Source of the DNA: a bacterium
GTDB lineage: Bacteria > Patescibacteriota > Minisyncoccia > Phycocordibacterales > UBA2100
Assembly: GCA_038128225.1 (NCBI GenBank)
Contig: JAYPJF010000002.1
Coordinates: 39,451 to 103,450, forward strand
DNA: 64,000 nucleotides
Reading direction: 5' to 3'
Numbering within the stretch: position 1 is the first letter of the stretch; each line of letters starts with the position of its first letter. Positions 27,368 through 41,717 of the stretch are shown piece after piece. The notes beneath the pieces are model-generated. The model was not told where the DNA came from. It saw only the letters and a list, made by a program, of their open reading frames with translations, and made no database searches. Position numbers and translations under genes: made by a program.

Positions 27368-27988
27368 ATGGCGATCGTTGCACGGAATCTTGAGGGGATT
27401 AATGCGGTGGCGGTATCTCCGGCACAGAGGCTTGCACTCCCGGAGCCGCAGCATGTTTTCGCGCTTTTTCCAGGCGCGGCATCGAAAGGCTCTCGGCTTC
27501 TTGATGATGCGGCACTTCATATGCGTGCATTTACATTTCCCGAACTATCGCTGCAGCTCATTTTTGAACCCACGCGTATTCGTCTTGAAGCTACGACCGC
27601 ACATAAGCCTGCGGAATTGCGTCTTGGCGAAATTTTACACACTGTCGAAAAAACGATATTTCCAAAAAACACGTTCGAACGACACGGGTTTAATTACGAC
27701 ATTGCGTATCAGTACGACGCTATCATCCCGCAAAGAGCGTTGTGGGAGCGTTTTGTTTCTAAGGATGTGCTGGAGAACATGACCCATTTCGGTTGGCAAA
27801 TGACTCTCCAAAAAGGGAAAGGGGAACAGAAAGAAACGTACTTCTTTAAGGTGGTCTCACCACTCGAGCTCCGGGTACTTGCTAACATCGAAATTGACCA
27901 CAAACACGGGGATTTTGATGCACAGCGGAAGTTTGAAGAGTGTTATACTTCATCTCAAGAGATCGTGAATCACCTCACGTTCTCTTAG
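27368..27988 (+). CDS. Hypothetical protein (206 aa)
   Basis: ORF only. No recognisable family. Confidence 0.4.
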   Translation: MAIVARNLEGINAVAVSPAQRLALPEPQHVFALFPGAASKGSRLLDDAALHMRAFTFPELSLQLIFEPTRIRLEATTAHKPAELRLGEILHTVEKTIFPKNTFERHGFNYDIAYQYDAIIPQRALWERFVSKDVLENMTHFGWQMTLQKGKGEQKETYFFKVVSPLELRVLANIEIDHKHGDFDAQRKFEECYTSSQEIVNHLTFS

Positions 27989-27991
27989 TCG

Positions 27992-29491
27992 ATGACGCTC
28001 TCACATAATGGGATAAAATTTCGGAGAACGACCCGGCGATCTGTCGCTGTGTTTTTCATTTTGTGTGTTGAAATAGTTCTTTCGTTTTTCTTATACGTAA
28101 CATTAACCGCGCACATGCTGTGGCCTGAAAAGTCAGGCGCAGCGGTTGGTGTTGCCAACATACTTTCATATGAAGGTCGGCTCATGGATGAAAACGGTTC
28201 GCCGCTGGGCGGAACAGGCGAGCCGTATTGTTTTCGATTCTCGATTTACGACGCGCAGTCTTCCGGTACTAAATTGTGGCCATCAGGAACACCCGCAACC
28301 ACCACTGCAACCACTACCGACGGAGTATTCACTGCACTCATCGGCCAAGCAGACACGCTCGATTACAATTTTTATTCAAGCGACACGGTGTTTCTGAATG
28401 TTGACGTATACACGGCGACATCAACAAACGGCACTAATTGTTTTAATGGATCGTGGGAAACGCTCGCGCCGAGGCAGCGGGTTGCGGCAACGGGATACGC
28501 ACGCGCCGCGGAAAATGTCTATAGTTCACTTTTCTCAACCAACGTCGCTTCGGGTATCGTACAAGTGGGGACCGGCGTTGGCGGGGCGTCACCAAAATTT
28601 CTCGGACTTGATGTAAAAAACACTAATGACTATATCGGGCAATCGTGTGCTACTTCAGGAACCGTATGGTACAACTCTGCGATCTCGAAGGCGCTCGTGT
28701 GCGAAAACGGCGTGATCCAAGCAATCAGTAACTCTTCGGCCACTACCACTATCGCGGCGTTAACAGCAAATGGAGGCACGCCCGTAACCACGGGCACGGT
28801 CGTATTTTCAAATTCGAACGGTGTCACTTTTGGCATCAACGGAAACACGATCACGGCAAGCGTAAATGCGGGGGGCGGCGGCACCACCTATAGTGGATAT
28901 GCACCAGAGTATCATGGAAAAGAGCAGGTCGCGGGGCAGCAGGGGCAAGGAACGTTTTTTGTTCAGCCAATGTGGAATGCTCCTTCATTTCAATTTGATC
29001 GATTTGTGATGCCGATCAACTTTTCCAATACATCAAACTCTTCGGGTAGCGCAACCCTTTCATTTTGGGTGGGAGTGTACTCAAAAAATGTTTCAACACT
29101 TTCACTGGTCATGAGCAGCTCAGTTTCGACGAATGTGACTATGTCGGGAACTGCAGGGAGTTATTCACTCTACGCGGGCCCAAGAAACTTGACTATACCG
29201 TGGACGAGCACTCTTAGCGGAAGTGATTATTGGATTGGCATTGGATCGCGCACCACGACTGGCGGCGCAAACATGTCGATTTCGCAATTTTTGGCATCAC
29301 AACCAAACTCAGTGTATTCAGGAAACTTTGGTGTCGCGAGTAACGCGACGAAAGGAGGCATCCTCGGGCAAGGGTTTTATAGCGCAACAACTTCCGCCGT
29401 GCCGGCATCGATTGCGTTTACTCAAATCAATGCCTCAGGTTCCCTAAACCGCAGGCCGCCCGTGTATTTTTTCATGAGTGACTCTATATGA
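27992..29491 (+). CDS. Thr/Ser/Gly-rich secreted surface protein (499 aa) with an N-terminal TM/signal anchor
   Basis: N-terminal hydrophobic helix. Extended T/S/G/N-rich beta-rich sequence (PATTTATTTDG, SNSSATTTIAALTANGGT...). Its end overlaps the next gene's start (ATGA), suggesting translational coupling. Confidence 0.55.
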   Translation: MTLSHNGIKFRRTTRRSVAVFFILCVEIVLSFFLYVTLTAHMLWPEKSGAAVGVANILSYEGRLMDENGSPLGGTGEPYCFRFSIYDAQSSGTKLWPSGTPATTTATTTDGVFTALIGQADTLDYNFYSSDTVFLNVDVYTATSTNGTNCFNGSWETLAPRQRVAATGYARAAENVYSSLFSTNVASGIVQVGTGVGGASPKFLGLDVKNTNDYIGQSCATSGTVWYNSAISKALVCENGVIQAISNSSATTTIAALTANGGTPVTTGTVVFSNSNGVTFGINGNTITASVNAGGGGTTYSGYAPEYHGKEQVAGQQGQGTFFVQPMWNAPSFQFDRFVMPINFSNTSNSSGSATLSFWVGVYSKNVSTLSLVMSSSVSTNVTMSGTAGSYSLYAGPRNLTIPWTSTLSGSDYWIGIGSRTTTGGANMSISQFLASQPNSVYSGNFGVASNATKGGILGQGFYSATTSAVPASIAFTQINASGSLNRRPPVYFFMSDSI

Positions 29492-30219: not shown

Positions 30220-31176
30220 ATGAAAAAATACATTTTCGCTCTCTGTGCACTCGTGTTTGTAGCGATAGGCGGATTTTTTGCAGGTGCGTATCCGCACAAT
30301 TCTGCGGGAGCAGAAAGCGCTCTTGCGGTGAAGAAGTCGAGTGGACACCCACTCATAAACCCCACTGTAACCGCTGGGCTTGAAAAACACTTCATCATCA
30401 ATGTGCAACCGTTGAAAGAACAATTTATGAGTATACAAAAACAATACGCACATAAAACGTATCTGTATTTTGCCTATCTTAATAATGATTCATGGGTGGG
30501 GTTGAGCGAGCGAGAGTATTTCACCGCCGCATCGACAATCAAAATTCCTCTTGCGATGAGTGTTATGCGTGCTGTGGAAACAGGAAAACTCTCACTCGAA
30601 GACAAATACACTATTACCTTTGACGATTTGGACGTGGGTTTTGGCACGTTCCACGAGCGTGCGGAAGGGAAAACGGTGAGTATTCGAGAATTAGTACGCA
30701 TCATGCTTGAGGAATCTGACAATACTGCAATGCAGTCATTAATTCATGTATTGCAAAACAGTGGCAGCACCGATCCTTTCGAACAAGTTTACGCGTTTAT
30801 GGGATGGGACAATTATCCTGGGCTTGGGGAGGCACCGGAATACTTCGCCATCAATCTCAAAGTACTTTCCAATATGTTTCTTGCACTCTACAATGCACGG
30901 TACGTAAACGCTGATCATTCTCAAGAAATACTACACTATCTCGATAATGCGAATTTTAACGAACAAATTGTTGCAGGGGTTCCGCATTCGATTGCGGTTG
31001 CGCATAAAAGCGGCGTGCAGACAGAGTCTCAAACGTATTCAGATTGTGGGATAGTATATGTCCCAAACCGGCATTATCTCCTCTGTTTGGGTTCGGAGGG
31101 CTCGTCAAAAGATATTGCCGACGCATTCATGAAAGAAGCATCGAAGGCGGCATATGAGTTTGTCATCAATAACTAG
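30220..31176 (+). CDS. Class A beta-lactamase-like serine hydrolase (secreted)
   Basis: Signal peptide plus the three class-A motifs in the right order: S-T-I-K (AASTIK), S-D-N (EESDNTAMQ), K-S-G (AHKSG). Confidence 0.65.
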   Translation: MKKYIFALCALVFVAIGGFFAGAYPHNSAGAESALAVKKSSGHPLINPTVTAGLEKHFIINVQPLKEQFMSIQKQYAHKTYLYFAYLNNDSWVGLSEREYFTAASTIKIPLAMSVMRAVETGKLSLEDKYTITFDDLDVGFGTFHERAEGKTVSIRELVRIMLEESDNTAMQSLIHVLQNSGSTDPFEQVYAFMGWDNYPGLGEAPEYFAINLKVLSNMFLALYNARYVNADHSQEILHYLDNANFNEQIVAGVPHSIAVAHKSGVQTESQTYSDCGIVYVPNRHYLLCLGSEGSSKDIADAFMKEASKAAYEFVINN

Positions 31177-31247: not shown

Positions 31248-31760
31248 ATGAAGTTAGATATCGCGTGCGGACAAAATAAGCGTGAGGGATTTATGGGAGT
31301 CGATATTGCGCCAGGACCTGGCGTTGATTTTGTGTGGGACTTAGAACAATTTCCCTGGAAACCGTTCGCGGACAATTCAGTGGAAGAAGCGCATGTGTCG
31401 CATTATGCGGAACACACTAAAGACCTGATGTCATTTATGAACGAAGTGTGGCGAATTTGCGAAGATGGCGCAAAAGTGACAATTATCGGGCCGTACTACA
31501 CGTCTATTCGTGCGTGGCAGGATCCTACTCATACGCGCGCGTTGAGTGAGGCAACGTGGCAGTACTTTCAAAAACCGTGGCGAGAGGTGAATAAACTCGA
31601 CCATTACCCAATTAGGTGCGATTTCGAAGTTACAAACATGCTTCTGTTTTTTAATGAACCGTGGAATCAAAAATCGGAAGAGGCGCGCGCGTTTGCGGCG
31701 CAACACTACTTTAATGTAGTCTCCGATATACTGGTTGAACTGAAAGTCAAAAAAGCGTGA
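31248..31760 (+). CDS. Small class I SAM-dependent methyltransferase
   Basis: LDIACGQNKREGFMGVDI resembles MTase motif I, with a downstream acidic motif II-like DLEQFP. 170 aa. Confidence 0.4.
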   Translation: MKLDIACGQNKREGFMGVDIAPGPGVDFVWDLEQFPWKPFADNSVEEAHVSHYAEHTKDLMSFMNEVWRICEDGAKVTIIGPYYTSIRAWQDPTHTRALSEATWQYFQKPWREVNKLDHYPIRCDFEVTNMLLFFNEPWNQKSEEARAFAAQHYFNVVSDILVELKVKKA

Positions 31761-31772
31761 TACCCTTACGCT

Positions 31773-32219
31773 GTGTCGCCTCGAATAATTCATATCGGAG
31801 CATTATGCGCGGCACTCCTCGCCTCTGGTGCGGCGTTTCTTTATCTGCACCCGTTCGGATCGGAATCAGTTGTGTATGAGCGCATCGCATCTATTCCTGC
31901 GGCGCCGACGTTGCCACCGTCACCGCTTATGACCTATCCAGATCCTGATACCTACCAGCAGTTCGTGTTTGCTGCGCGCGCTGAGGCGGTGGTCGATATA
32001 ACGTGTGAGGATGCCTACGCGACGGTTCTGATCTATCCGCGCGACGTTGATTATCGGAAAAATCCCACGGGCGCAAAACACAACATCGCGTATCTGTGTG
32101 AAGAAAAAGGGGATACAGCGTTGTCGATTGATCTCCATGGCAAACCATTTACCGTGGGCGAGACCTACTACATTGTTCGCGCGCACCAAGGTAGCGGTGA
32201 ATGGTATAATCCCTATTAA
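31773..32219 (+). CDS. Hypothetical secreted protein (148 aa)
   Basis: Signal peptide (MSPRIIHIGALCAALLASGAAFLY), then a Pro-rich stretch. Confidence 0.4.
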   Translation: MSPRIIHIGALCAALLASGAAFLYLHPFGSESVVYERIASIPAAPTLPPSPLMTYPDPDTYQQFVFAARAEAVVDITCEDAYATVLIYPRDVDYRKNPTGAKHNIAYLCEEKGDTALSIDLHGKPFTVGETYYIVRAHQGSGEWYNPY

Positions 32220-32221
32220 GT

Positions 32222-32611
32222 ATGTGGCACTGGGTACAGTCATTCGTTTGGATATTTATTTTCGTGATGGTTTTTGGTGTCTTTGTGCTGTGGGGGCCTG
32301 CGCTAGGGCCGTTTCTATCTCTTCACACCGCGCCGTATACGCATGATGTATATGGAGTGTACTTAGAAAGTGGTCACGTGTTCTATGGAGAAATCAGATC
32401 AGTAGGATGGCACTCATTAGTGCTCGAAAATGTCCACTCGTTCCAGAATGTTACCGTGGGCGAAACTTCGACAAGTAATTTCCAGGCACAAAAAGATAAT
32501 CCGCTCACGCGGCCTGAAAACTGGTTGGTGATCGAACGAGACGCGATTCTTTTTTACGAGAAACTCACTCCTGCTGCAAAAATAATGTCGCTTATTCGTG
32601 GGGAATCATGA
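32222..32611 (+). CDS. Hypothetical membrane-anchored protein (129 aa)
   Basis: N-terminal TM helix. 4-nt overlap with the next gene. Confidence 0.4.
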   Translation: MWHWVQSFVWIFIFVMVFGVFVLWGPALGPFLSLHTAPYTHDVYGVYLESGHVFYGEIRSVGWHSLVLENVHSFQNVTVGETSTSNFQAQKDNPLTRPENWLVIERDAILFYEKLTPAAKIMSLIRGES

Positions 32612-34218
32612 ACTATGTAGTCGGTTTTATACTCGCAGGGTGCGTAGTGCCAACGATTGTGTTTGGATTCACCGCAACATCAACAAATTTTCACGTAAAT
32701 CAGGCAATTGTTTCGATCGGCGGCGGAAACCCCACAAGCTCAGTAAGTACATCGACCAACTTCCAGCTTTTTGGCGCTGGCGGGCAAACAGGCACGGGGA
32801 CGTCAACAATCGGTTCGTCATTTACGTTGTACGGTGGCTTTCTGCGCTCGATGTTCAAAAGTGTTCGTCCAACGTATACGCTCGAGCATTTTCATTGGCG
32901 CAATGATGATGGCACGGAAACATCAGCGACCTCGGGAACGTTGGGTGTGCAAGATACGGCAACGTCGTCGGTGCCAAAATCGGCAGCAAAACGATTGCGC
33001 ATTGCAGTTTCAAACGAAGGTGGGACTCAGGCAAACTACAGTGCTACCCAGTTTCGACTTGAGTACGGCCTTAAATCAACAACGTGTGGAGCGATAAGCT
33101 CGTGGAGTGATGTTGGTGCCGGTGCAGGGGATTGGGATATGTCAGATTCGAGCAATGTAACCAATGGAGGAAATACAACCAATATCGCGCTAGGTAGTGG
33201 AGGCGTCGGTGACGAGAACAAATACTTTATTGGAGATGGAGGTGTTCGCGATACCGCAAGCGAAACGAGCGCACAATTTGTTGAGAGTCACTCGTTTTAT
33301 GAAATCGAATATTCCATTCAGGCGCTCGCTGCTGCAACCGACAGTGGTACATATTGTTTTCGAGTGACCGCATCGGGTACCGATACGCTCTTTGTGTATG
33401 ACGTATACCCTGAAGCAACTCTTGCGGCAGGAGCGGGAACGCGGCCGATTGCTTCTGCGGTTTCGATTGACTCCGGTGCTGCCGCGGTGACACTCACCGA
33501 AAACACGATAAAAAACGTATCGTGCGTAGGCACGGTAACTGATACTGACGAATTTGCTGACATCACTTCGGTAACTGCAGATTTGTATCGAACTTCGGTG
33601 GGAGTCGGCGGGGGAGAGGATGACAATAACTACTACCAACTCGCAGGAGATGCGGAATGTGTTCCTTCAGGGGGCTCTGGAAACTCTGAAACATATACGT
33701 GTACATTTGCCGTGCAATATTTTGCCGACCCGACCGATACAGGTTCTCCAAATGCGAGTGACACATGGACGTGCACGATGACTCCTTCTGACGGCGTGGG
33801 AGCAGGAACTGCCGCGTCAGACACAATCGAAATGAATTCTCTCATGGCGCTCACGGTGACTGCGACGATTGCGTACGGAAGCGTGAATGCAAATGCCGAC
33901 ACGGGGAGTGTGAACCAAACGACAACGGTCACTAATACCGGCAATCGCGACATGGATCCAGAACTTTCAGGCGTCACCATGGCGGACGGAGGGAACTCCA
34001 TCGCCGTTGGTCAACAAAAGTACGCGGACGCTGCATTTACCTACACATCCGGAGGTGTCGCGCTTTCTACTACGCCGACAGCGATCAATGTAACTTTGCC
34101 TCAGCGGACCGGAGGAGCAATTAGCGACGATGTACTCTGGGGTCTTGGAGTTCCTAACGGTACACCGATCGGAAGTTACACAGGAACAAATACATTTACC
34201 GCAGTAGCGGGGTTGTAG
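32608..34218 (+). CDS. Thr/Gly-rich secreted surface protein, paralogue A (536 aa)
   Basis: N-terminal hydrophobic anchor. Shares with the 34273 gene the domain signatures TLTENT..., (I)A(Y/F)G(S/T)V(N/S)ANADTG..NQ..T.TNTGN, and a C-terminal (W)G(L/I)..PNG...G.YTG.NTFTAVA(G/D) motif. Confidence 0.55.
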   Translation: MNYVVGFILAGCVVPTIVFGFTATSTNFHVNQAIVSIGGGNPTSSVSTSTNFQLFGAGGQTGTGTSTIGSSFTLYGGFLRSMFKSVRPTYTLEHFHWRNDDGTETSATSGTLGVQDTATSSVPKSAAKRLRIAVSNEGGTQANYSATQFRLEYGLKSTTCGAISSWSDVGAGAGDWDMSDSSNVTNGGNTTNIALGSGGVGDENKYFIGDGGVRDTASETSAQFVESHSFYEIEYSIQALAAATDSGTYCFRVTASGTDTLFVYDVYPEATLAAGAGTRPIASAVSIDSGAAAVTLTENTIKNVSCVGTVTDTDEFADITSVTADLYRTSVGVGGGEDDNNYYQLAGDAECVPSGGSGNSETYTCTFAVQYFADPTDTGSPNASDTWTCTMTPSDGVGAGTAASDTIEMNSLMALTVTATIAYGSVNANADTGSVNQTTTVTNTGNRDMDPELSGVTMADGGNSIAVGQQKYADAAFTYTSGGVALSTTPTAINVTLPQRTGGAISDDVLWGLGVPNGTPIGSYTGTNTFTAVAGL

Positions 34219-34272
34219 GTGTGGATAACTACAGAGAGCGGCGACGCTTCACTATATACTTGATGAGTAACT

Positions 34273-35244
34273 ATGATGCGCCGTGCACGATCGCTCAACT
34301 TCAACGCGTGGACAATTTCCGCGGTAGTTTTTGCAGCAGGCGTTTTGGTCTCTGCAACTATCGTGCTCGCGGATACTGCATCAACTTCGGTTACGGTAGG
34401 TAACTCATCTCCTACCGTGAGTGCTGTGTCGATGAATGGCGGCACAAACATTACTCTTACCGAAAACACGTTTGTGAATGCCACAACAACGTTTACGGTA
34501 ACTGATGGGAACGGATGCAGTACGATTTCAAGTGTCTCGGCGCAGTTTGCCTTTGCTTCAACGAGCGCGGCGCTCTACGGAGCCAATTGTTCCTACAATG
34601 CGCAAGTGTGTTATTTCCCAACACTCTGTGCAGCAACAACGACAGGAAATACATGCACTGGTGGTTCTGATACTTCAGTACAGTATGATTGTGGCTACAA
34701 AATTTGGTATCCTGCGCGACCCACCGACGGCTCCTCCCCGGGTCTTTCGAGTGCGCAGTGGTACGTCTCAGCAACCGCGACGGACGCAAGCGCAGCAACA
34801 GGAAATGCAACAAATACCGGCGAAACCATTGAGGTTGTTACTTTGAATGCACTTAATGTGAGCGGATCCATTGGCTTTGGAACCGTCTCCGCAAACGCAG
34901 ACACTGGCGGCACGAATCAAAGCGTCACCCACACCAATACTGGAAATACCGCGATTGATAATCAGGTGTCTGGTGACGTAATGTGTACTGACTACTCGAC
35001 GTGTGTTGGTGGTGTACTGCAGCCATCGCAGCAGAAGTTTGGATTGAGTGACGTAACGTACGCTTCACTCACGAGTACACTCGCTGCAACCACATCGCCT
35101 GCATCAATTGAATTTGATCTGGCGACTTCCTCAGCAACCACCACTGCAATCACTGATTTGTCATATTGGGGTATTGCGATTCCAAACGGTCAGACCACTG
35201 GCGCGTATACGGGACAAAACACTTTTACCGCGGTTGCTGACTAG
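34273..35244 (+). CDS. Thr/Gly-rich secreted surface protein, paralogue B (323 aa)
   Basis: Signal peptide, the same motif set as paralogue A, and the C-terminal ...IPNGQTTGAYTGQNTFTAVAD. Confidence 0.55.
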   Translation: MMRRARSLNFNAWTISAVVFAAGVLVSATIVLADTASTSVTVGNSSPTVSAVSMNGGTNITLTENTFVNATTTFTVTDGNGCSTISSVSAQFAFASTSAALYGANCSYNAQVCYFPTLCAATTTGNTCTGGSDTSVQYDCGYKIWYPARPTDGSSPGLSSAQWYVSATATDASAATGNATNTGETIEVVTLNALNVSGSIGFGTVSANADTGGTNQSVTHTNTGNTAIDNQVSGDVMCTDYSTCVGGVLQPSQQKFGLSDVTYASLTSTLAATTSPASIEFDLATSSATTTAITDLSYWGIAIPNGQTTGAYTGQNTFTAVAD

Positions 35245-35276
35245 GTTTCCTGTCGCGCTCGTGTACACTTAAGCGC

Positions 35277-36167
35277 ATGTATCGAGGCTTACTTTTTTCA
35301 CTGGTACTGGTAGCCTTAACTGTCCCTTGGATTGCGGATGCCGGATTTGGTGTTTCGCCCCCACTTGTTAAAGAAGACCGCCTTGTTCCAGGTATTACGC
35401 TTGAGCGAATTGTGTACTTGGTCCAGGGTAGCCCTGAGCGCGATCTGCAAGTTGAGTTGTTTGTTGAATCTGATATCAGCGACTGGATACGCTTTCCGCA
35501 AGGTAACCCGATCACGATTCCAAAAGGTGTGCAACAATTTCCTCTTGCTGTGCAGGTGAGTGTGCCCGCTGACGCGCAGCTCGGTGTATATAAAGGCTCT
35601 ATTCGCATCACCACGGTACCTGAAAAAGCTGACGAGGCAGGTGAAGTAGCGATCGCGATTGGCGGATTGGTTGAACTGGATCTCACGGTTGGTAATGACG
35701 TTATTGTCGATTTGAAAGTGCGTACGATTAAGATTTTGAATGTGAAGGAAGGCGATGACGCTGAAGCAGATGTCACTATCGTTAATAGCGGCAACGCACC
35801 GGCTGCACCAGACGCGGCGACGTTTGAATTATTCAACAAATTTGGTGAGCTACGACTAGCGTATGGTGAGACGCAAGAGTTCAAGCTTGTGCCCGCGTTT
35901 GGCGAGCTCGTTGAACATCTTTCGTTTCCTATCGATATTCATCTTGCTCCTGGAGAATACTGGGGCCACGTTAAAGTGTACAAAGATAAGGAGTTAATTG
36001 GAGAGTTGCGTACGGTGTTTAATGTTACGGAAAAAACCTTTTTGGAAAAATACCAGTGGTATCTCGTGGGTGCATTGGGGCTTCTTGCATCCATACTCCT
36101 CCTTGTATTTGTTGTCATGATGCGGCGCCAGAACAGACCCGTATACTACGAGCAACCTATACGATGA
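35277..36167 (+). CDS. Secreted protein with a C-terminal TM anchor (architecture reminiscent of DUF916/DUF3324-type cell-surface proteins, low confidence)
   Basis: Signal peptide, a GFGVSPPLV... beta-rich ectodomain, then a C-terminal TM helix (WYLVGALGLLASILLLVFVVMM) plus a basic tail. Confidence 0.45.
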   Translation: MYRGLLFSLVLVALTVPWIADAGFGVSPPLVKEDRLVPGITLERIVYLVQGSPERDLQVELFVESDISDWIRFPQGNPITIPKGVQQFPLAVQVSVPADAQLGVYKGSIRITTVPEKADEAGEVAIAIGGLVELDLTVGNDVIVDLKVRTIKILNVKEGDDAEADVTIVNSGNAPAAPDAATFELFNKFGELRLAYGETQEFKLVPAFGELVEHLSFPIDIHLAPGEYWGHVKVYKDKELIGELRTVFNVTEKTFLEKYQWYLVGALGLLASILLLVFVVMMRRQNRPVYYEQPIR

Positions 36168-36170
36168 AAC

Positions 36171-37265
36171 ATGCGCGTTGCAGCATTGCTACTTATTGTG
36201 TGCTTCATAAGCACGTGGGTGTATGCGGACACGGCGTCGATAACGGTAACGGTGATTATCGCACAGTGTACTGACGGGTCTGATAATGATGGCGATACGC
36301 TGATTGACTACCCTTCTGACCCAGGGTGTTCTTCGACTGGGGATAATGATGAATCAAACGCTGCCCCGCACTGCTCGGACACTCTGGATAATGATTCTGA
36401 CGGTCTTACTGATTACCCCGCAGATCCTGGGTGCTATAAAACCAGTTATATTTCCGAGGCAATGGCTGCGGGGGGCGGCGGTGGTGGCGGGGGGGGTGGA
36501 GGAGGCGGAGGTGGGGTGGTATCGAGTGGGTCAGCGGTGACTCTAACCGGGTACGCCTATCCAAATAGCGTTGTGCACGTATACCAAGACGGACGACGGG
36601 TATTAGAAGTGTATGCGGGTTCCGATGCGCGCTTTACTGCAACGATACAAAATCTTTCTGCGGGTATTTATACGTTTGGTGTAAGTGCGCAAGATGAAGA
36701 CGGAAGACGTTCGGCGCTGTTTAATATTCCACTCTCCGTCTCTGTTTCATCACAAACAAGTATTGGCGGCACCGTACTCGCACCAACGATAACATCGGAT
36801 TACGAAAAAATTCGTCACGGTGACACTTTGACGCTTTTTGGAGCAACGATTCCGAACGCGCAAGTGACTGTTGAAGTCAATTCTGAGACACAGCTCTTTG
36901 TTCGCGCTGAATCAAATGCTGATGGCGCGTATCTCGCGAGATTTGATACGTCACAGATCGAGCGCGGAGATCACGTCGCGCGCGCGAAAGCCGAGTCTGA
37001 AACTCTTTCGATTCCGTATGGGACGGCGATAGGGTTTGTTGTTGGCGATGTAAACGTGCCGCGTGTTGAGGCGTCTGGTTCGGTGCGTAAAGGCGATCTC
37101 ACAAGTGATGGAAAAGTTGATATTCGAGATTTTTCAGTTGCTGCGTACTGGTATCGACGAACACTTACCGCCGAGTTTGCGCTCATCGAGTCTGAAAGGC
37201 TCAATGGCGATGGAAAAATTGATCTGAAAGATTTTAGTATCATGGCGTATTATTGGACCTCATAA
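36171..37265 (+). CDS. Secreted dockerin-domain protein with two Cys/Asp-rich Ca-binding-like repeats and a Gly15 linker
   Basis: Signal peptide. Two copies of C(T/S)DxxDNDxDxLxDYPxDPGC (thrombospondin-type-3-like DxDxDG). GGGGGGGGGGGGGGG linker. Beta-rich domain. C-terminal duplicated dockerin-like segments GDLTSDGKVDIRDFSVAAYWY / LNGDGKIDLKDFSIMAYYW. Confidence 0.55.
   Translation: MRVAALLLIVCFISTWVYADTASITVTVIIAQCTDGSDNDGDTLIDYPSDPGCSSTGDNDESNAAPHCSDTLDNDSDGLTDYPADPGCYKTSYISEAMAAGGGGGGGGGGGGGGGVVSSGSAVTLTGYAYPNSVVHVYQDGRRVLEVYAGSDARFTATIQNLSAGIYTFGVSAQDEDGRRSALFNIPLSVSVSSQTSIGGTVLAPTITSDYEKIRHGDTLTLFGATIPNAQVTVEVNSETQLFVRAESNADGAYLARFDTSQIERGDHVARAKAESETLSIPYGTAIGFVVGDVNVPRVEASGSVRKGDLTSDGKVDIRDFSVAAYWYRRTLTAEFALIESERLNGDGKIDLKDFSIMAYYWTS
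36468..36525 (+). repeat. Poly-glycine codon tract containing G6 and G8 homopolymers
   Basis: GCGGGGGGCGGCGGTGGTGGCGGGGGGGGTGGAGGAGGCGGAGGTGGGG, with G8 at 36489-36496. Confidence 0.8.
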
Positions 37266-38113
37266 CTATGCGTATCTGTTTTCGACCATTTCTCTTCGCC
37301 GCGTTAATAGCTGTGTTTGTTATAGTCCCAGACCAGGCGATTGCCGCATCAGTTGAAGCACGTGTCGCTCGAGACGGGGCCCTGTGGAGAGTCACATATA
37401 TTTTGCACGCAGAGGGGGCTGCGTTAAACGTACTTGCGGGGACGTTTCCTTTTTCTTCTGATCTAAAAGTAGAGCGCATAGAAACTGGACGTAGTATCAT
37501 CCAGCTTTGGGTTACTTCTCCCAAAAATGACCGTGCTGGCGTAACGTTTGAAGGAGTTGTTCCGGGCGGATTTTTGGGGAGCGCAATCCCGTCCCGAGGA
37601 TTGACTGGCTCGGGAGAAATAATGACTGCCGTCTTTTCATCAGAAAAGGATCATGGGATATTGGCGGGTGGTTCTATTAGAGGGTATCTTCACGATGGCA
37701 GTGGGACGGAGGTTTCGCTTCCGTTTGCTGAAGTCACGTTTGATGCACGAACTCCTGAAGAAAACGTTTCTGATGACCGTACACCTCCCGCACGTATTTT
37801 TTTTGAAATTCTAAACGAGCCTTCAATGCTCGTGCTTGACGCTCAAGATAAAGAAACAGGCATCGATCGCTACGAGGTGAAGATAGGGCGCACTGAATGG
37901 AAGACTGTCGAGCCGCCGGTGCCGCTTTCGCAGGCGGAGCGAGATGCGCGCATTGCCGTGCGTGCATTTGATAACGCCGGAAATTTTCGTGAAGCCCTTG
38001 TTCAGGAATCATCTCCGAACGAAACATACAAGCGCATCTTAGGTATTATTGGCATACTCGTGATCGTCCTCGTACTGGCGGCGGTATATATGCGCGTGAT
38101 GCACAGGGAGTAG
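37253..38113 (+). CDS. Hypothetical secreted protein with a C-terminal TM anchor (286 aa)
   Basis: Signal peptide (FLFAALIAVFVIVPDQAIA), a beta-rich ectodomain, and a C-terminal TM helix (ILGIIGILVIVLVLAAVYM). Confidence 0.45.
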   Translation: MDLITMRICFRPFLFAALIAVFVIVPDQAIAASVEARVARDGALWRVTYILHAEGAALNVLAGTFPFSSDLKVERIETGRSIIQLWVTSPKNDRAGVTFEGVVPGGFLGSAIPSRGLTGSGEIMTAVFSSEKDHGILAGGSIRGYLHDGSGTEVSLPFAEVTFDARTPEENVSDDRTPPARIFFEILNEPSMLVLDAQDKETGIDRYEVKIGRTEWKTVEPPVPLSQAERDARIAVRAFDNAGNFREALVQESSPNETYKRILGIIGILVIVLVLAAVYMRVMHRE

Positions 38114-38137: not shown

Positions 38138-39115
38138 ATGATACGTTTTATGAAGCACGCATTATTCTCTGGGATGCTCGGTGCGCTCTACTTCTGTGTA
38201 GGGGCGCTACCGTTAGTTGCAGATGCTGCAACACTCCAATTTGGTGGCGCAACGCAGGGGACTGTTGGAAGCACGCTCACGATTCCGATTACCGTGAGCG
38301 CAGCACAAGGAGAATCGGTTAACGCGGTTTCTGCAACAGTGCGTTTTCCCGCTGCGCTACTTGAGGCGACCTCAATGTCTTCTTCGGGGAGCATCGTAAA
38401 TTTTTGGGTGCAGCAACCAAGTTTTTCAGCCTCAGCGGGGACAGCAGAACTTGAGGGGGTAATACTCAATCCAGGTTTTAGCTCTCAGCAAGGAATAGTT
38501 GCAACACTGACGTTTCGAGTTCGCGCTGCTGGAGCAGCAACACTCTCATTTTCTTCGGCTTCAGTTTTAGCGAATGATGGGGCGGGGAGTAACATACTCA
38601 CCGCGTCTCCGTCAAAAACACTCACCCTTACTGCTCCTGAGGTAAAGAAAGAAGAGCAAAAGAAGATCGAGCCGACGACAGGAAGCGCTGAAGAGAAAAA
38701 ACCAATCGAGGTTGTGCCGCCACCACTACGTGAAGCAACAAGCGCTCTTGAGATTTCGCCGATACAGGACGATGTCCCCGCGACGTCGACTTACCAGACG
38801 CATCCGGCACCGTCGTTCGGGTATGCACTTCCTTTAGCAACGGGGCTCGCGATCCTTGGCTGGCTCATAATACTTGCACGGTTCCTTTTCGATCGGAGAG
38901 CTAAGGTGCCGCCTTTGAAACGTATCGCTGCAGCCGACCGCGCACTCCACCAAGCGCTTAAAGACCTACGATCTGACCTCTCGCACGAACTGAAACATTT
39001 GCGCGCAAAAGAGGGCGCAGGCACGCTAACGGTCGAGGAACGGCATATTTTGAAGCGTTTTGCAGGAGCGATGAACGAATTTGATAAAATTGACTCCGAC
39101 TCGGAGCGAGCGTAA
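38138..39115 (+). CDS. Membrane-anchored cohesin-like domain protein with a cytoplasmic coiled-coil tail
   Basis: Signal peptide. ATLQFGGATQGTVGSTLTIPITVSAAQGESVNAVSATVRFPAALLEATS...GIVATLTFRVRAAGAATLSFSSASVLANDGAG matches the cohesin beta-sandwich pattern (GxT(V/L)xIPVx(V/F)S...VNAxxxx(V/I)xF(D/P)..LE...). Then a Pro/Glu linker, a TM helix (LATGLAILGWLIILARFLF), and a basic/coiled tail. Confidence 0.55.
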   Translation: MIRFMKHALFSGMLGALYFCVGALPLVADAATLQFGGATQGTVGSTLTIPITVSAAQGESVNAVSATVRFPAALLEATSMSSSGSIVNFWVQQPSFSASAGTAELEGVILNPGFSSQQGIVATLTFRVRAAGAATLSFSSASVLANDGAGSNILTASPSKTLTLTAPEVKKEEQKKIEPTTGSAEEKKPIEVVPPPLREATSALEISPIQDDVPATSTYQTHPAPSFGYALPLATGLAILGWLIILARFLFDRRAKVPPLKRIAAADRALHQALKDLRSDLSHELKHLRAKEGAGTLTVEERHILKRFAGAMNEFDKIDSDSERA

Positions 39116-39970: not shown

Positions 39971-39997
39971 AGGGAATGGGTAATTGAACTGAAAACA

Positions 39998-40024
39998 AAA
40001 ACACCCAGCAGCGCTGGGTGTTTT
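39998..40024. terminator. Bidirectional hairpin terminator between the surface operon (+) and the LTD gene (-)
   Basis: AAAACACCCAGC-AGC-GCTGGGTGTTTT followed by T. Confidence 0.5.
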
Positions 40025-40037
40025 TGGTACGAGTCGT

Positions 40038-41717
40038 TTATAAACCTGGTGTCGGTGTTTCTCGGTCTACCCAATCACTTGCGGTATTGGTGTCAGTAGT
40101 TACTGACGATCGAGCAATCGAGTGACCGTCTGCGACTGACGCGGTTGATGGATCAAACGCTGTTGTATTTGACCCCCACGAAACTGCGTCAACCACAGTG
40201 TCTCCGCTTTTTAGAAACACTCCGTCGCTCGAATTACTCAAACCGTTGCCGATTGAGCCGCCCAGAACAACTACCGGTACACCCCCGGGGAAACTCCAGA
40301 AGTTCGCGGTTGTGCTGGTGCCGGTGACAATGAGGTATCCTCCTGCTGCGATCGTTGTTGTTGCAGGGAAGGCATCAGTTGAAGTAGCGTCCATGATAGA
40401 CCATCCGCTTATGTCGACAGGGGAAGCTGTGGGGTTATAAAGTTCCACCCACTCATTTCCGGGGTCGTCACCGTGAGCCGTGTCAGGATTATAGTACGCC
40501 TCACTGATAATGACATGAGCAACTTGCGGCGCGGGTTCAAGTACCGTCACCACGACGCTGTCCGCCGCTTCACCGCCCAATCCAGAGCACGTGAGCGTGT
40601 ATGTGCTTGTAGTCGCTGGACTTGCTGCAATCGAACTGTTGAGCGGAACTGCGCCACTCCATGCTCCTGAGCCTGTGCAGGTTGTTGCCTGTGTTGACGC
40701 CCACGAAAGCGTCGTAGTTCCGCCACGGGTAATAGTTGTTGGGTTGGCCGTCAAATCCACCGTCGGCATTGGGTGTGGACTTACGGTCACGGTTTCCGAT
40801 TCAGATACTGAACCTCCCGCGCCCGTACAGGTGAGCGTGTACGTTGTTGTCGTTGCAGGGGTAACTACCATGGAGCCTGAGGTGTCTTTTGACCCCGACC
40901 AGCCATCTGAGGCGGTGCACGCGGTGGTGTTTGTTGAACTCCAGCTGATAAGCGAGCTTGTGCCTACAAGGATACTCGCCGGGTTAACGGTAAGCGAAAG
41001 AGTTGGTGTGGGCGCTGGTGTAACCGTAACCGTTGTTGTGCCCGAAACCGATCCTCCGTTTCCTGTGCACGTAAGAACATACTGCGCGGTTGTGGTAGGA
41101 GAGACGCCCTCGCTGCCTGAAGTTGTTTTTAACCCACTCCAATTGCCTGATGCGGTGCAGCCGTTTGCGTTTGCAGCAGTCCATGAGAGTGTCGCGCTGT
41201 TGCCGGACACTATCGTTGTTGGGCTAGCGCCGAAGGTAAGAGTTGGCTGCGAGGGCGGCGCCGCGTTTACGGTAACCGTTGCGGAATCGCTTGTGGATCC
41301 AGTCGCATTACTGCAGGTGAGTGTGTATGTAGTCGTTGTTGCTGGGGAGACACTCAGAGAGCCATTTTTTTCTTGAGCGCCACTCCAACCACCGGAAGCC
41401 GTACACGTTTCGGCGTTTGCACTTGACCAGGTAAGTAACGATGAGCTGCCCACAGTAATCGACTCTGGGTTACTTACGTGAGATACGGTAGGTACAGGCA
41501 GCGGCGGAGTCTCACGACACATCCATAACTGCACGTGACTCGGGAACCGTTGTTTCAGCGGTTTAAGACCTTCGCACACTTGATCGTAAATATGGTTACG
41601 CAGATCATCGTATCGAAGTGGCGAATGATACGCGGAGCCAGCCTCAAGGACACCGACTCCTGCCGATAAAAACACAAGAGTTAATAAACCAAGCCAAGAA
41701 GCACGAAGTAATGCCAT
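40038..41717 (-). CDS. Secreted protein with 4 tandem Ig-like repeats and a C-terminal lamin-tail domain (LTD)
   Basis: Signal peptide. Four repeats of ~90 aa (T(L/V)T.NP..I..G.S..L.W.S.NA..CTASG.WSG.K..SGS..VSPATTTTYTLTC.G.GGS.S.S.TVTV). C-terminal HVIISEAYYNPDTAHGDDPGNEWVELYNPTASPVDISGW...SNSSDGVFLKSGDTVVDAVSWG is the LTD signature. Confidence 0.7.
   Translation of the reverse strand: MALLRASWLGLLTLVFLSAGVGVLEAGSAYHSPLRYDDLRNHIYDQVCEGLKPLKQRFPSHVQLWMCRETPPLPVPTVSHVSNPESITVGSSSLLTWSSANAETCTASGGWSGAQEKNGSLSVSPATTTTYTLTCSNATGSTSDSATVTVNAAPPSQPTLTFGASPTTIVSGNSATLSWTAANANGCTASGNWSGLKTTSGSEGVSPTTTAQYVLTCTGNGGSVSGTTTVTVTPAPTPTLSLTVNPASILVGTSSLISWSSTNTTACTASDGWSGSKDTSGSMVVTPATTTTYTLTCTGAGGSVSESETVTVSPHPMPTVDLTANPTTITRGGTTTLSWASTQATTCTGSGAWSGAVPLNSSIAASPATTSTYTLTCSGLGGEAADSVVVTVLEPAPQVAHVIISEAYYNPDTAHGDDPGNEWVELYNPTASPVDISGWSIMDATSTDAFPATTTIAAGGYLIVTGTSTTANFWSFPGGVPVVVLGGSIGNGLSNSSDGVFLKSGDTVVDAVSWGSNTTAFDPSTASVADGHSIARSSVTTDTNTASDWVDRETPTPGL
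40400..41495 (-). repeat. Tandem ~270-bp coding repeats (4 copies) encoding the Ig-like modules
   Basis: Visible protein-level periodicity, and recurrent DNA blocks (e.g. GTGAGCGTGTA...GTTGTCGTTGCAGG, ACGGTAACCGTTG...). Confidence 0.65.

What the first reader, a model, noticed from the sequence alone, without database searches (positions are those of the whole stretch)
32608..35244. Two paralogous Thr/Gly-rich secreted proteins share internal domain signatures and a conserved C-terminal ~25-aa motif ending NTFTAVA(G/D)
Both proteins contain TLTENT..., (I)xFGxV(S/N)ANADTGxxNQxxTxTNTGN and end with WG(L/I)(G/A)(V/I)PNGxxxGxYTGxNTFTAVA. A conserved extreme C-terminus on secreted beta-rich proteins suggests a sorting, anchoring or donor-strand-type assembly signal. 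The FG.V...T.TNTGN pattern is faintly reminiscent of SCPU/Csu-type pilin subunits, but that is a loose impression and not an assignment. The 499-aa protein upstream at 27992 is similar in composition but lacks the C-terminal motif.
Basis: seen in the sequence. Interest (0 to 1): 0.6.

Follow-up and report, generated by a model that had tools for sequence, protein, structure and literature searches.

The report
Shared docking module of CPR surface proteins
The two proteins are a large/small pair that share a 270-residue, two-domain C-terminal module found in thousands of uncharacterised surface proteins of tiny Parcubacteria, and they open a conserved six-gene operon that most likely builds a non-covalently assembled attachment structure on the cell surface.

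Summary
ORF A (32608-34218, 536 aa) and ORF B (34273-35244, 323 aa) are paralogues: 38% identity over 277 residues, E=1e-30.

The similarity covers a whole two-beta-sandwich module of about 270 aa, not scattered motifs. The "WG(I/L)..P.G...G.YTG.NTFTAVA" motif is that module's last beta-hairpin. It is not a detachable tail.

The module defines an unannotated family of about 2,100 clusters at 50% identity, and every named source is Parcubacteria/Paceibacteria. It sits at the extreme C-terminus of proteins from 300 to 4,157 aa.

A large member and a small member lie side by side in 22 of 23 loci. They are followed by four conserved genes:
- C: two Ig domains plus a TM helix. Its best whole-chain PDB matches by TM-score are WxLIP, then the FimC chaperones.
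- D: dockerin-like.
- E and F: cohesin-like with TM anchors.

A new point: the mature N-termini of small B and of D carry the same strand motif (DT[AS]S.SVTV), and the large proteins lack it.

My best reading is a non-covalent surface assembly built by beta-strand docking, with A as a variable adhesin. Profile tests found no homology to WxL, WxLIP, SCPU, DUF11 or TasA. The gene-cluster architecture mirrors Firmicute WxL clusters. The mechanism is inferred, not shown.

The parts
32608..34218 (+). ORF A, 536 aa. This is the 'large' member: a signal peptide, a variable N-terminal region (aa ~21-279) and the shared C-terminal module (aa 280-536).
   Evidence: ORF list. Single N-terminal hydrophobic segment. 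The A1 profile matches aa 278-534 at E=5.7e-68. The N-terminal region has no significant Pfam hit at E<=1.
33445..34215 (+). The shared two-domain module within A. It includes the C-terminal hairpin motif WGLGVPNGTPIGSYTGTNTFTAVAGL at 34138-34215.
   Evidence: BLASTP alignment A 280-534 to B 47-322, E=1e-30. Coordinates.
34273..35244 (+). ORF B, 323 aa. This is the 'small' member: signal peptide (aa 1-33, predicted cleavage VLA|D), a conserved N-terminal strand motif, beta-sandwich domain 1 (aa 48-180) and domain 2 (aa ~185-323).
   Evidence: AlphaFold2 model on 50 homologues, mean pLDDT 83.5: helix 7-29, then seven strands in each of two domains. Alignment A1.
34372..34413 (+). Mature N-terminal motif of B, DTASTSVTVGNSSP. 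I read it as a candidate donor or docking strand. It is unstructured in the monomer model.
   Evidence: D34, T38, V40, V42, N44 and P47 are invariant or at least 90% conserved. DSSP assigns no strand to residues 30-47, and the 31-40 block has pLDDT 60. The regex is specific to small B and to D: 19/29 and 20/29, against 0/19 large proteins and 1/1377 other ORFs.
35167..35241 (+). C-terminal motif of B, WGIAIPNGQTTGAYTGQNTFTAVAD. It forms the last beta-hairpin of domain 2.
   Evidence: Strands 293-303 and 316-322 in the model. It is the most conserved stretch of the family.
35277..36167 (+). ORF C, 296 aa: signal peptide, two Ig-like domains, a C-terminal TM helix (aa 263-281, nt 36063-36119) and a basic tail. 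It is the membrane-anchored partner.
   Evidence: AlphaFold2 mean pLDDT 93.2. Foldseek against PDB: WxLIP 9i1y/9i25_C at E about 2e-8 with TM 0.43-0.50, the best TM in the list; FimC chaperones reach TM 0.34 (query) / 0.43-0.46 (target). A B-module gene lies within 300 bp upstream of C in 23 of 26 loci.
36171..37265 (+). ORF D, 364 aa, in order:
- signal peptide;
- the same N-terminal strand motif (DTASITVTVI, nt 36228-36257);
- two acidic disulfide repeats (36267-36329 and 36372-36434);
- a 15-Gly run (36471-36515);
- Big_6 Ig domains;
- a C-terminal dockerin-like duplicated Ca-loop segment (37089-37256).
   Evidence: Pfam Big_6 at E=7.9e-9; Dockerin_1 at E=0.001, below the gathering score. 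NCBIfam acid_disulf_rpt. Weak PDB dockerin matches over 307-362. N-terminal motif conserved in D orthologues.
37253..38113 (+). ORF E, 286 aa: signal peptide, a cohesin-like N-terminal region, an OmpL47-type barrel-like segment and a C-terminal TM helix (38036-38092).
   Evidence: NCBIfam barrel_OmpL47 at E=3.4e-8, below cut-off. Local similarity to F's cohesin region, BLASTP E=0.002. TM helix. Conserved downstream of C in 17 of 20 loci.
38138..39115 (+). ORF F, 325 aa: signal peptide, a cohesin domain (38237-38581), a linker, a TM helix (38834-38890) and a cytoplasmic tail.
   Evidence: Pfam Cohesin at E=2e-7, 31.7 bits, above the gathering score of 24.1. TM helix. Conserved in 16 of 20 loci.
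39996..40026 (.). Strong bidirectional terminator-like hairpin (14-bp stem). It closes the + strand gene string that contains A-F and the two small genes after F.
   Evidence: No comparably long-stemmed terminator-like hairpin lies between the A-F genes (the other listed sites have 5-8 bp stems and fall inside ORFs). Gaps between A-F are at most 54 bp or the genes overlap.

Best explanation
A and B are the large and small members of a Parcubacteria-specific family. The family is defined by a C-terminal module of about 270 aa made of two beta-sandwich domains. The NTFTAVA(D/G) motif is the module's final beta-hairpin.

The pair opens a conserved six-gene operon (A-B-C-D-E-F). I think this operon builds a non-covalent, multi-protein structure on the surface of a cell that has no outer membrane.

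Proposed working:
- All six proteins are exported by Sec.
- C, E and F stay in the membrane through C-terminal TM helices.
- A, B and D have no anchor of their own and are held by protein-protein docking.
- D's dockerin-like end binds the cohesin of F (or E).
- The shared module of A and B is a docking (acceptor) module. Its partner is a short beta-strand. The most likely candidate is the conserved mature N-terminal strand DT[AS]S.SVTV, carried by B and by D but not by the large proteins.

That gives a chain: A (variable adhesin, module only), then B (strand plus module, possibly repeated), then D (strand plus dockerin), then F/E (cohesin plus TM). C would be a membrane-tethered two-Ig assembly or holding factor of the WxLIP / PapD kind.

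What is shown: paralogy, the fold class, family size, C-terminal position of the module, synteny, the TM and signal pattern, and the distribution of the N-terminal motif.

What is inferred: every physical contact, and the strand-complementation mechanism.
For: Paralogy:
- E=1e-30 between A and B.

Fold:
- The model shows two seven-stranded sandwiches, with the motif as the last hairpin.

Family:
- The A1 profile finds 2,100 clusters at 50% identity with E<=1e-3, and 910 with E<=1e-30.
- Every named source is Parcubacteria, Paceibacterota, Lloydbacteria and relatives.
- The module ends within 12 aa of the C-terminus in 110/114 large proteins (403-4,157 aa) and 147/148 small ones.

Synteny across 26 non-redundant loci:
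- A B-module gene lies within 300 bp upstream of C in 23/26.
- At least two module genes lie upstream in 23/23 loci with enough flank, one of them large in 22/23.
- D is downstream in 19/20, E in 17/20 and F in 16/20.

Anchors and docking pairs:
- TM anchors are present only in C, E and F.
- F has a cohesin domain above the Pfam threshold, and D has a dockerin-like C-terminus.

The N-terminal motif:
- It is shared by B and D and is specific to them: 19/29 and 20/29, against 0/19 large proteins and 1/1377 other ORFs.
- In the wider family it occurs in 82/129 small members but only 2/114 large ones.
- It precedes unrelated domains in B and in D, so it behaves as an independent module.
- It is unstructured in the B monomer model.
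- In L020 the D-position gene is motif + B domain 1 + dockerin, lacking domain 2.

Protein C:
- Its best whole-chain PDB matches by TM-score are WxLIP and the FimC/CsuC chaperones.

Precedent:
Against: - No contact is therefore demonstrated.
- Both domains of B are predicted as complete seven-stranded sandwiches. There is no obvious missing-strand groove of the chaperone-usher type.
- The conserved N-terminal segment of B could simply be an A strand of domain 1 that the model failed to place.
- Foldseek hits for B are generic tandem-Ig matches (best E=6e-5, TM<0.3).
- Dockerin_1 in D and the barrel match in E are below curated thresholds.
- C's Foldseek E-values are similar for many unrelated two-Ig proteins.
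- No expression or localisation data exist.
Confidence: 0.5

Rival explanations
1. A WxL-type display without a chain. A and B each dock independently, through the shared module, onto the membrane-anchored protein C and/or onto peptidoglycan. This is how small and large WxL proteins are thought to sit on WxLIP in Firmicutes. A's N-terminal part is the host-binding end, and D/E/F form a separate cohesin-dockerin unit.
For: - The minimal architecture is the same as a WxL cluster: one two-Ig + TM protein plus a small and a large paralogue sharing a C-terminal domain (PMC9772566 and PMC10599100).
- The gene order is also the same. In Listeria it is large, (LPXTG), small, WxLIP. Here it is large, small, C.
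- C's best-TM PDB matches are WxLIP 9i1y and 9i25_C.
- There is a short look-alike of the second WxL motif..VP.G...G.Y..LTWTL.DAP against ..IP.GQ..GsYtG.NTFTAv.D.
Against: - No Pfam WxL, DUF916 or DUF3324 hit for any of 50 B or 48 C family members at E<=10.
- hhalign of B, or of its domain 2 alone, against a 45-sequence WxL profile gives probability <1% and E=0.25-0.5. Against large-WxL domains it gives E=0.27.
- C against WxLIP ectodomains scores 12.6, which equals the shuffled null of 13.7 +/- 2.5.
- The solved WxL domain 9i25_A is not among the top 50 Foldseek hits of B.
- This model leaves the B/D shared N-terminal motif unexplained.
Confidence: 0.25
2. The conserved C-terminus is a sorting or processing signal. 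On this view it is recognised by a transpeptidase or protease, for example a sortase-like enzyme or the neighbouring beta-lactamase-fold protein, which covalently anchors or matures the proteins.
For: - The motif is at the extreme C-terminus in more than 95% of members.
- The last residue is usually Asp.
- A class-A beta-lactamase / DD-peptidase-like gene lies just upstream of the large gene in several loci: immediately adjacent in at least five of the nine loci that carry one.
Against: - The motif is two core beta-strands of domain 2 with high pLDDT. Removing it would unfold the domain.
- There is no hydrophobic helix or basic tail after it.
- No NCBIfam or Pfam C-terminal sorting-domain model matches.
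- No sortase or exosortase gene is in the conserved neighbourhood.
- The tail after the last strand varies: AD, AGL, YSSN, TH.
Confidence: 0.05
3. The proteins are SCPU/Csu-type or other classical chaperone-usher pilins, or TasA/camelysin-type fibre subunits.
For: - The FG.V...T.TNTGN pattern is typical of Ig-like pilin-type strands.
- There are weak Foldseek hits of B to CfaE, Saf, FimH and AggA (E=1.5e-3 to 2.5e-2).
- TasA homologues are known in Patescibacteria (PMC9245690).
Against: - No SCPU, DUF11 or Peptidase_M73/TasA hit in 50 members at E<=10.
- No usher and no SipW-type peptidase in the conserved operon.
- The host lineage is monoderm, so there is no outer membrane for an usher. This rests on established knowledge of CPR bacteria.
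- Both domains are predicted as complete sandwiches.
- No TasA or AbpA structure appears in the top 50 Foldseek hits.
Confidence: 0.04

Closest known systems
WxL / Csc cell-surface clusters of Firmicutes (small WxL, large WxL, and WxLIP = DUF916+DUF3324+TM)
   Same: - A secreted small protein and a secreted large protein share a C-terminal domain, and in the large one it is always the last domain.
- The N-terminal parts of the large protein are variable and adhesin-like.
- The adjacent gene encodes a two-Ig-domain protein with a C-terminal TM helix.
- The gene order is large, small, two-Ig protein.
- Attachment is thought to be non-covalent and to involve beta-strand complementation.
- C's best PDB match by TM-score is WxLIP.
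   Different: - No detectable sequence homology of B to WxL or of C to WxLIP.
- The shared module has two domains (about 270 aa), not a single WxL domain.
- There is no dual Trp-x-Leu motif at 68-106 residue spacing.
- There is no LPXTG partner.
- There are extra conserved partners: a dockerin-like D and cohesin-like E and F.
- B and D share an N-terminal strand motif.
- The phylum is different (Patescibacteria).
Chaperone-usher pili (Fim, Pap, Csu): donor-strand exchange
   Same: - The logic of parts matches. A tip protein has a variable N-terminal domain, a C-terminal subunit module and no N-terminal extension. A small subunit has an N-terminal extension plus the module. A two-Ig-domain protein resembles PapD-like chaperones (FimC TM 0.34 query / 0.43-0.46 target, CsuC 0.30/0.37).
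   Different: - There is no usher and no outer membrane.
- The chaperone-like protein is membrane-tethered.
- The subunit domains are predicted complete rather than lacking a G strand.
- No sequence match to any pilin or SCPU family.
- The basal link would be dockerin-cohesin.
Cohesin-dockerin surface scaffolds (cellulosome-type anchoring)
   Same: F has a Pfam-significant cohesin domain and a membrane anchor. D ends in a duplicated Ca-loop dockerin-like segment. This suggests non-covalent tethering of a secreted protein to an anchored scaffold.
   Different: No glycoside hydrolases or carbohydrate-binding modules were detected. The A/B module is neither a cohesin nor a dockerin. The dockerin match is below Pfam's threshold.
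TasA / archaeal bundling pili (donor-strand fibres of monoderms and archaea)
   Same: Both are Sec-exported subunits whose conserved mature N-terminal strand could be donated to the next subunit. Both are encoded with an accessory anchoring protein. TasA-like proteins are reported in Patescibacteria (PMC9245690).
   Different: No PF12389 match. The fold is two Ig-like sandwiches rather than a single jelly-roll. There is no dedicated SipW peptidase.

Membership tests
WxL domain proteins (Pfam PF13731) | Sequence match to the WxL domain model or profile. | tested here: not met
   No PF13731 hit for A or B at E<=1, nor for any of 50 family members at E<=10. hhalign against a 45-sequence profile of genuine PF13731 proteins gives probability <1% and E=0.25-0.5. 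Against large-WxL C-terminal domains it gives E=0.27.
WxL domain proteins (Pfam PF13731) | Two Trp-x-Leu motifs 68-106 residues apart on adjacent strands at the C-terminus (PMC9772566). | tested here: not met
   The family has W-G-[IL] and F-T-A only about 19 residues apart, in a single hairpin. Only the last roughly 20 residues look like the second WxL motif.
WxL domain proteins (Pfam PF13731) | Fold similarity to a solved WxL domain (9i25_A). | tested here: inconclusive
WxL gene cluster (at least one WxLIP plus two WxL genes, adjacent; PMC10599100) | Cluster architecture: a small and a large paralogue sharing a C-terminal domain, next to a gene for a two-Ig + TM protein. | tested here: met
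   Large + small + C are adjacent in 22-23 of 23 loci with enough flank. The module is C-terminal in 110/114 large proteins. This holds at the level of architecture only, not of component homology.
WxLIP (DUF916 + DUF3324 + TM) | Sequence match to DUF916/DUF3324, including the conserved NQIDKxxxYFDLK motif. | tested here: not met
   No such Pfam hit in 48 C-family members at E<=10. The hhalign ectodomain-only score of 12.6 equals the column-shuffle null of 13.7 +/- 2.5, n=100. The earlier E=0.006 came from the signal peptide and TM helix. The motif is absent from alignment A2.
WxLIP (DUF916 + DUF3324 + TM) | Two tandem Ig-like domains followed by one TM helix, with fold similarity to the solved WxLIP. 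| tested here: inconclusive
   The architecture is met. Foldseek to 9i1y and 9i25_C gives E about 2e-8 and TM 0.43-0.50, the best TM in the list. However, rmsd is 7.6 A, and many unrelated two-Ig proteins have similar E-values.
Chaperone-usher pilins, including SCPU/Csu (PF05229) | Match to a pilin or SCPU model, an incomplete Ig fold lacking the G strand, and an usher gene in the operon. | tested here: not met
   No SCPU or fimbrial Pfam hit in 50 members. Seven strands are predicted in each domain. No usher-like gene in 26 loci.
Chaperone-usher pilins, including SCPU/Csu (PF05229) | An N-terminal extension present on polymerising subunits and absent from the tip adhesin. | tested here: met
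   The conserved mature N-terminal motif occurs in small B (82/129) but in only 2/114 large proteins. This is an analogy of logic, not proof of donor-strand exchange.
TasA / camelysin (PF12389) | Match to PF12389, a jelly-roll fold, and a SipW-type peptidase nearby. | tested here: not met
   No hit at E<=10 in 50 members. No TasA or AbpA structure in the top 50 Foldseek hits. No signal-peptidase gene in the conserved neighbourhood.
DUF11 / CARDB-type repeats | Pfam model match. | tested here: not met
   No DUF11 or CARDB hit among 50 members at E<=10. The only recurrent weak hit is fn3_5 (5 members, best E=0.039).
C-terminal sorting signals (LPXTG, PEP-CTERM, GlyGly-CTERM and similar) | A short motif followed by a hydrophobic helix and a basic tail, with a cognate sortase or exosortase. 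| tested here: not met
   The proteins end 2-4 residues after the last beta-strand, and there is no C-terminal hydrophobic segment. No NCBIfam sorting-domain hit.
Cohesin-dockerin pair (context genes F and D) | A cohesin domain (PF00963) and a dockerin (PF00404), each above the gathering score. | tested here: inconclusive
   The cohesin in F scores 31.7 bits against a cut-off of 24.1, so it is met. Dockerin_1 in D scores 19.6 bits against a cut-off of 22.9 (E=0.001), so it is below threshold, although the duplicated DxDGxxD loops are visible.

The most novel reading that the evidence does not exclude
The operon encodes a previously unrecognised donor-strand-type fibre of monoderm CPR bacteria. 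The proposed parts are:
- Tip: a variable adhesin of up to about 4,000 aa (A-type, module only).
- Shaft: B subunits polymerise head-to-tail. The mature N-terminal strand DTASTSVTV of one subunit inserts against the conserved C-terminal hairpin of the next module.
- Base: D caps the base with the same strand and ties the fibre to the membrane through a dockerin-cohesin link to F/E.
- Assembly: C is a membrane-tethered, PapD/WxLIP-like chaperone.

This would be the host-attachment organelle of episymbiotic Parcubacteria. It would be an usher-free solution to strand-exchange assembly.
Probability: 0.25. Interest if true: 0.85.

Novelty: new variant of a known kind. Interest (0 to 1): 0.6.

Why it matters
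Parcubacteria/Paceibacteria are among the most abundant uncultured bacteria, and they are thought to live attached to other cells. How they attach is largely unknown beyond type IV pili.

This family is large: about 2,100 clusters at 50% identity, with members up to 4,157 aa. It is confined to that lineage, has no Pfam or NCBIfam model, and is annotated 'hypothetical' wherever a source names it at all.

The work here gives it a concrete, testable structure:
- a conserved six-gene operon;
- a clear split into anchored and anchorless parts;
- one Pfam-significant cohesin (F) with a dockerin-like partner (D; the dockerin match is below Pfam's threshold);
- two shared 'connector' elements, the C-terminal module and the N-terminal strand.

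If the strand-docking chain is right, it would be an independent invention, or a very remote relative, of WxL-type display or of chaperone-usher logic in a cell without an outer membrane. The variable N-terminal parts of the large proteins would then be prime candidates for host-specificity determinants.

Tried and rejected
1. Pfam, NCBIfam and PDB-sequence searches of A, B and the neighbours gave no informative hit for A, B or C.

3. I tested WxL homology in several steps.
   - OCR'd CscB alignments from Siezen 2006 were too noisy to use directly.
   - Fragments taken from them found nothing in the PDB.
   - The same fragments did pull genuine WxL clusters from plasmids.
   - Real WxL and WxLIP profiles then showed no significant similarity to B or C.

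4. The first hhalign result for C against WxLIP (E=0.006, 151-237 columns) came from the signal peptide and TM helix. After trimming, the score fell to the shuffle null.

5. The search for related loci with the B alignment failed because no stretch was conserved enough. The C alignment worked.

6. The apparent C-D fusion in L013 is a run of N in the assembly.

7. The 499-aa upstream protein is unrelated to the family.

8. Literature searches for Parcubacteria with cohesin/dockerin, for WxL in Patescibacteria, and for donor-strand pili in Patescibacteria found no description of this system.

Full report
**1. Observation**

The window carries two adjacent + strand ORFs: A at 32608-34218 (536 aa) and B at 34273-35244 (323 aa). 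BLASTP aligns A 280-534 with B 47-322 at 38% identity, E=1e-30. So the whole mature part of B is homologous to the C-terminal half of A.

A six-frame scan finds the C-terminal motif only in these two ORFs of the window. The 499-aa protein at 27992 is unrelated (hhalign probability 1.1%).

**2. What the shared region is**

Neither protein matches Pfam, NCBIfam or any PDB sequence. B has at least 218 homologues in the 5.8-billion-protein collection. All are unnamed or 'hypothetical', and the named sources are Parcubacteria, Paceibacterota or Lloydbacteria.

An exhaustive profile search of 1.84 billion representatives finds 2,100 clusters at E<=1e-3 and 910 at E<=1e-30. Lengths run from about 300 to 4,157 aa.

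AlphaFold2 on a 50-sequence alignment (mean pLDDT 83.5) gives the following layout:
- An N-terminal helix (7-29), which together with the VLA|D site reads as a Sec signal peptide.
- An unstructured but highly conserved segment (30-47).
- Two beta-sandwich domains of seven strands each (48-180 and 194-322).

These form the last hairpin of domain 2, and the chain ends one residue later. It is the most conserved stretch of the family: W299, Y312 and G314 are invariant. So it is a structural element of a domain, not a tail. Nothing resembling a sorting signal (hydrophobic helix, basic tail) follows it.

Among 262 family members, the module ends within 12 residues of the C-terminus in 110/114 large proteins (403-4,157 aa, median 936) and in 147/148 small ones.

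**3. Genomic context**

Contexts of distant B homologues, plus 25 loci from GTDB species representatives found with the C protein, show a conserved gene string:
- A large module-bearing protein, 471-2,070 aa, with a variable N-terminus.
- A small B, about 300-350 aa.
- Then C, D, E and F.

The counts are as follows:
- A module gene lies within 300 bp upstream of C in 23/26 loci.
- At least two module genes are upstream in 23/23 loci with enough flank, and one of them is large in 22/23.
- D follows in 19/20 loci, E in 17/20 and F in 16/20.

In the window the six genes are separated by at most 54 bp or overlap. The + strand string ends at a strong bidirectional terminator at 39996-40026.

**4. 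The partners**

- C (35277-36167) models at pLDDT 93 as a signal peptide, two Ig-like domains and a TM helix.
- D (36171-37265) has a signal peptide, two acidic disulfide repeats, a 15-Gly run and Big_6 domains. It ends in a duplicated Ca-loop segment that matches Dockerin_1 at E=0.001, below the gathering score.
- E (37253-38113) and F (38138-39115) both start with a cohesin-like region. F is Pfam-significant (E=2e-7), and E resembles F locally (BLASTP E=0.002). Both end in a TM helix.

So C, E and F are membrane-anchored ectoproteins, and A, B and D are secreted without an anchor.

**5. A second shared element**

The mature N-terminus of B (DTASTSVTVGNSSP, 34372-34413) recurs at the mature N-terminus of D (DTASITVTVI, 36228-36257) and of their orthologues.

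A regex for it hits 19/29 small B ORFs and 20/29 D ORFs. It hits 0/19 large module proteins and 1/1377 other ORFs in the loci. In the wider family it hits 82/129 small members with complete N-termini, against 2/114 large ones.

In B the strand precedes an Ig domain. In D it precedes Cys-rich repeats. It therefore behaves as an independent module.

In Liptonbacteria (L020) the D-position gene is motif + B domain 1 + dockerin, without domain 2.

The distribution is: A has the module only, B has strand plus module, and D has strand plus dockerin. That is what a head-to-tail docking code would predict. This step is inference.

**6. Tests against known families**

*WxL clusters.* Firmicute WxL clusters are defined as one WxLIP (two Ig domains + TM) plus a small and a large WxL protein sharing a C-terminal domain (PMC9772566 and PMC10599100). 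In those clusters WxLIP is predicted to complete the WxL sandwich with a donated strand. The architecture here is the same, and so is the gene order in Listeria.

Foldseek of C against PDB ranks WxLIP (9i1y, 9i25_C) at positions 2-4, with the best TM-scores (0.43-0.50). FimC chaperones (TM 0.34 query-normalised / 0.43-0.46 target-normalised) and CsuC (0.30/0.37) come next among whole-chain matches.

To test homology properly, I recovered genuine WxL clusters from plasmids and 120 PF13731 proteins. The results were negative:
- hhalign of the B family, or of domain 2 alone, against WxL profiles gives probability <1% and E=0.25-0.5.
- C against WxLIP looked promising at first (E=0.006). After removing the signal peptide and TM helix, the score of 12.6 equals the column-shuffle null of 13.7 +/- 2.5.
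- The solved WxL domain 9i25_A is not among B's top 50 Foldseek hits.
- Only a look-alike of about 20 residues to the second WxL motif remains.

So membership in WxL or WxLIP is not supported, and the resemblance is architectural.

*SCPU, DUF11 and TasA.* None of 50 members hits these models at E<=10. There is no usher and no SipW gene in the neighbourhood. Both domains are predicted complete.

**7. Interpretation**

The best-supported reading is a Parcubacteria-specific, non-covalent surface assembly. The shared C-terminal module is a docking element, and the variable N-terminal parts of the large proteins are displayed, probably as adhesins.

The specific contacts I propose are inferred from the distribution of parts and from precedent:
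- the module with the N-terminal strand of B or D;
- D's dockerin with the cohesin of F or E;
- C as a tethered assembly or holding factor.

None of these contacts has been shown. The main rival is independent WxL-like docking of A and B on C.

Models based on a sorting signal, classical pilins or TasA are unlikely.

**8. Novelty**

No paper in the searchable library describes this system. I rate it a new variant of a known kind: non-covalent surface display and assembly by beta-strand and cohesin-dockerin docking. It is built from families with no detectable homology to the known ones.

Noticed in passing
window 30220-31176 (+): A class-A beta-lactamase / DD-peptidase-like protein (Beta-lactamase2, E=5.9e-38) with an N-terminal hydrophobic segment. 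A homologue lies upstream of the large module gene in nine other loci, and it is immediately adjacent in at least five of them (L005, L009, L010, L026, L029). It may be functionally linked, for example through cell-wall remodelling or processing.
   Followed up: partly
window 31248-32611 (+): Three small genes sit directly upstream of A, and the last one overlaps A's start codon:
- a 170-aa protein with weak methyltransferase similarity;
- a 148-aa protein with one hydrophobic segment;
- a 129-aa protein with one hydrophobic segment.

All or part of the trio is conserved upstream of the large gene in L007 and L008 (170+148 in L007, 148+129 in L008; the 129-aa homologue in L007 is inferred from size and position only). 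They may belong to the same operon.
   Followed up: partly
window 36471-36515 (+), inside D: An uninterrupted run of 15 glycines forms a linker between the acidic disulfide repeats and the Big_6 domains. Similar Gly runs occur in D orthologues and in the L020 chimera.
   Followed up: no
L020 9983-10846: In a Liptonbacteria genome the D-position gene is a chimera: the B-type N-terminal motif, B domain 1, a Gly run and a dockerin-like end. This is domain shuffling among the operon's components.
   Followed up: partly
L009 4343-7930 and L021 1732-7944: In two large proteins the profile match to the module is split (L009 aa 641-892 + 1163-1193; L021 aa 1165-1404 + 1727-1780). In L009 the sequence shows an insertion of about 270 aa, largely Gly-rich, just before the final hairpin, which is retained at the extreme C-terminus. 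L021's intervening sequence was not inspected, and its protein (2,070 aa) continues ~290 aa past the last match and does not end in the motif.
   Followed up: partly
window 25769-27343, 27368-27988 and 27992-29491 (+): Further upstream lie a 524-aa acidic protein with an N-terminal TM segment, a 206-aa protein with no signal, and a 499-aa Thr/Ser/Gly-rich secreted protein. Relatives of the 524-aa protein lie immediately upstream of the large module gene in L020, L022, L024 and L025. In L007/L016 all three genes recur, in the same order, about 5 kb upstream of it. The 499-aa protein is not related to the A/B family.
   Followed up: partly
window 40038-41717 (-): A convergent 559-aa protein with a Lamin Tail Domain (E=3e-17) lies just beyond the terminator. 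It is another probable surface protein.
   Followed up: no
family-wide (P0001-P0120, P0361-P0502): The very last residue of module proteins is most often Asp (VAD, TAD, VSD, VTD and so on). The predicted mature N-terminus of B and D also starts with Asp. The significance is unknown.
   Followed up: no
window 35225-35884 (-): A 219-aa ORF lies antisense to C. It has a low-complexity Ser/Thr/Pro-rich translation and is most likely spurious.
   Followed up: no
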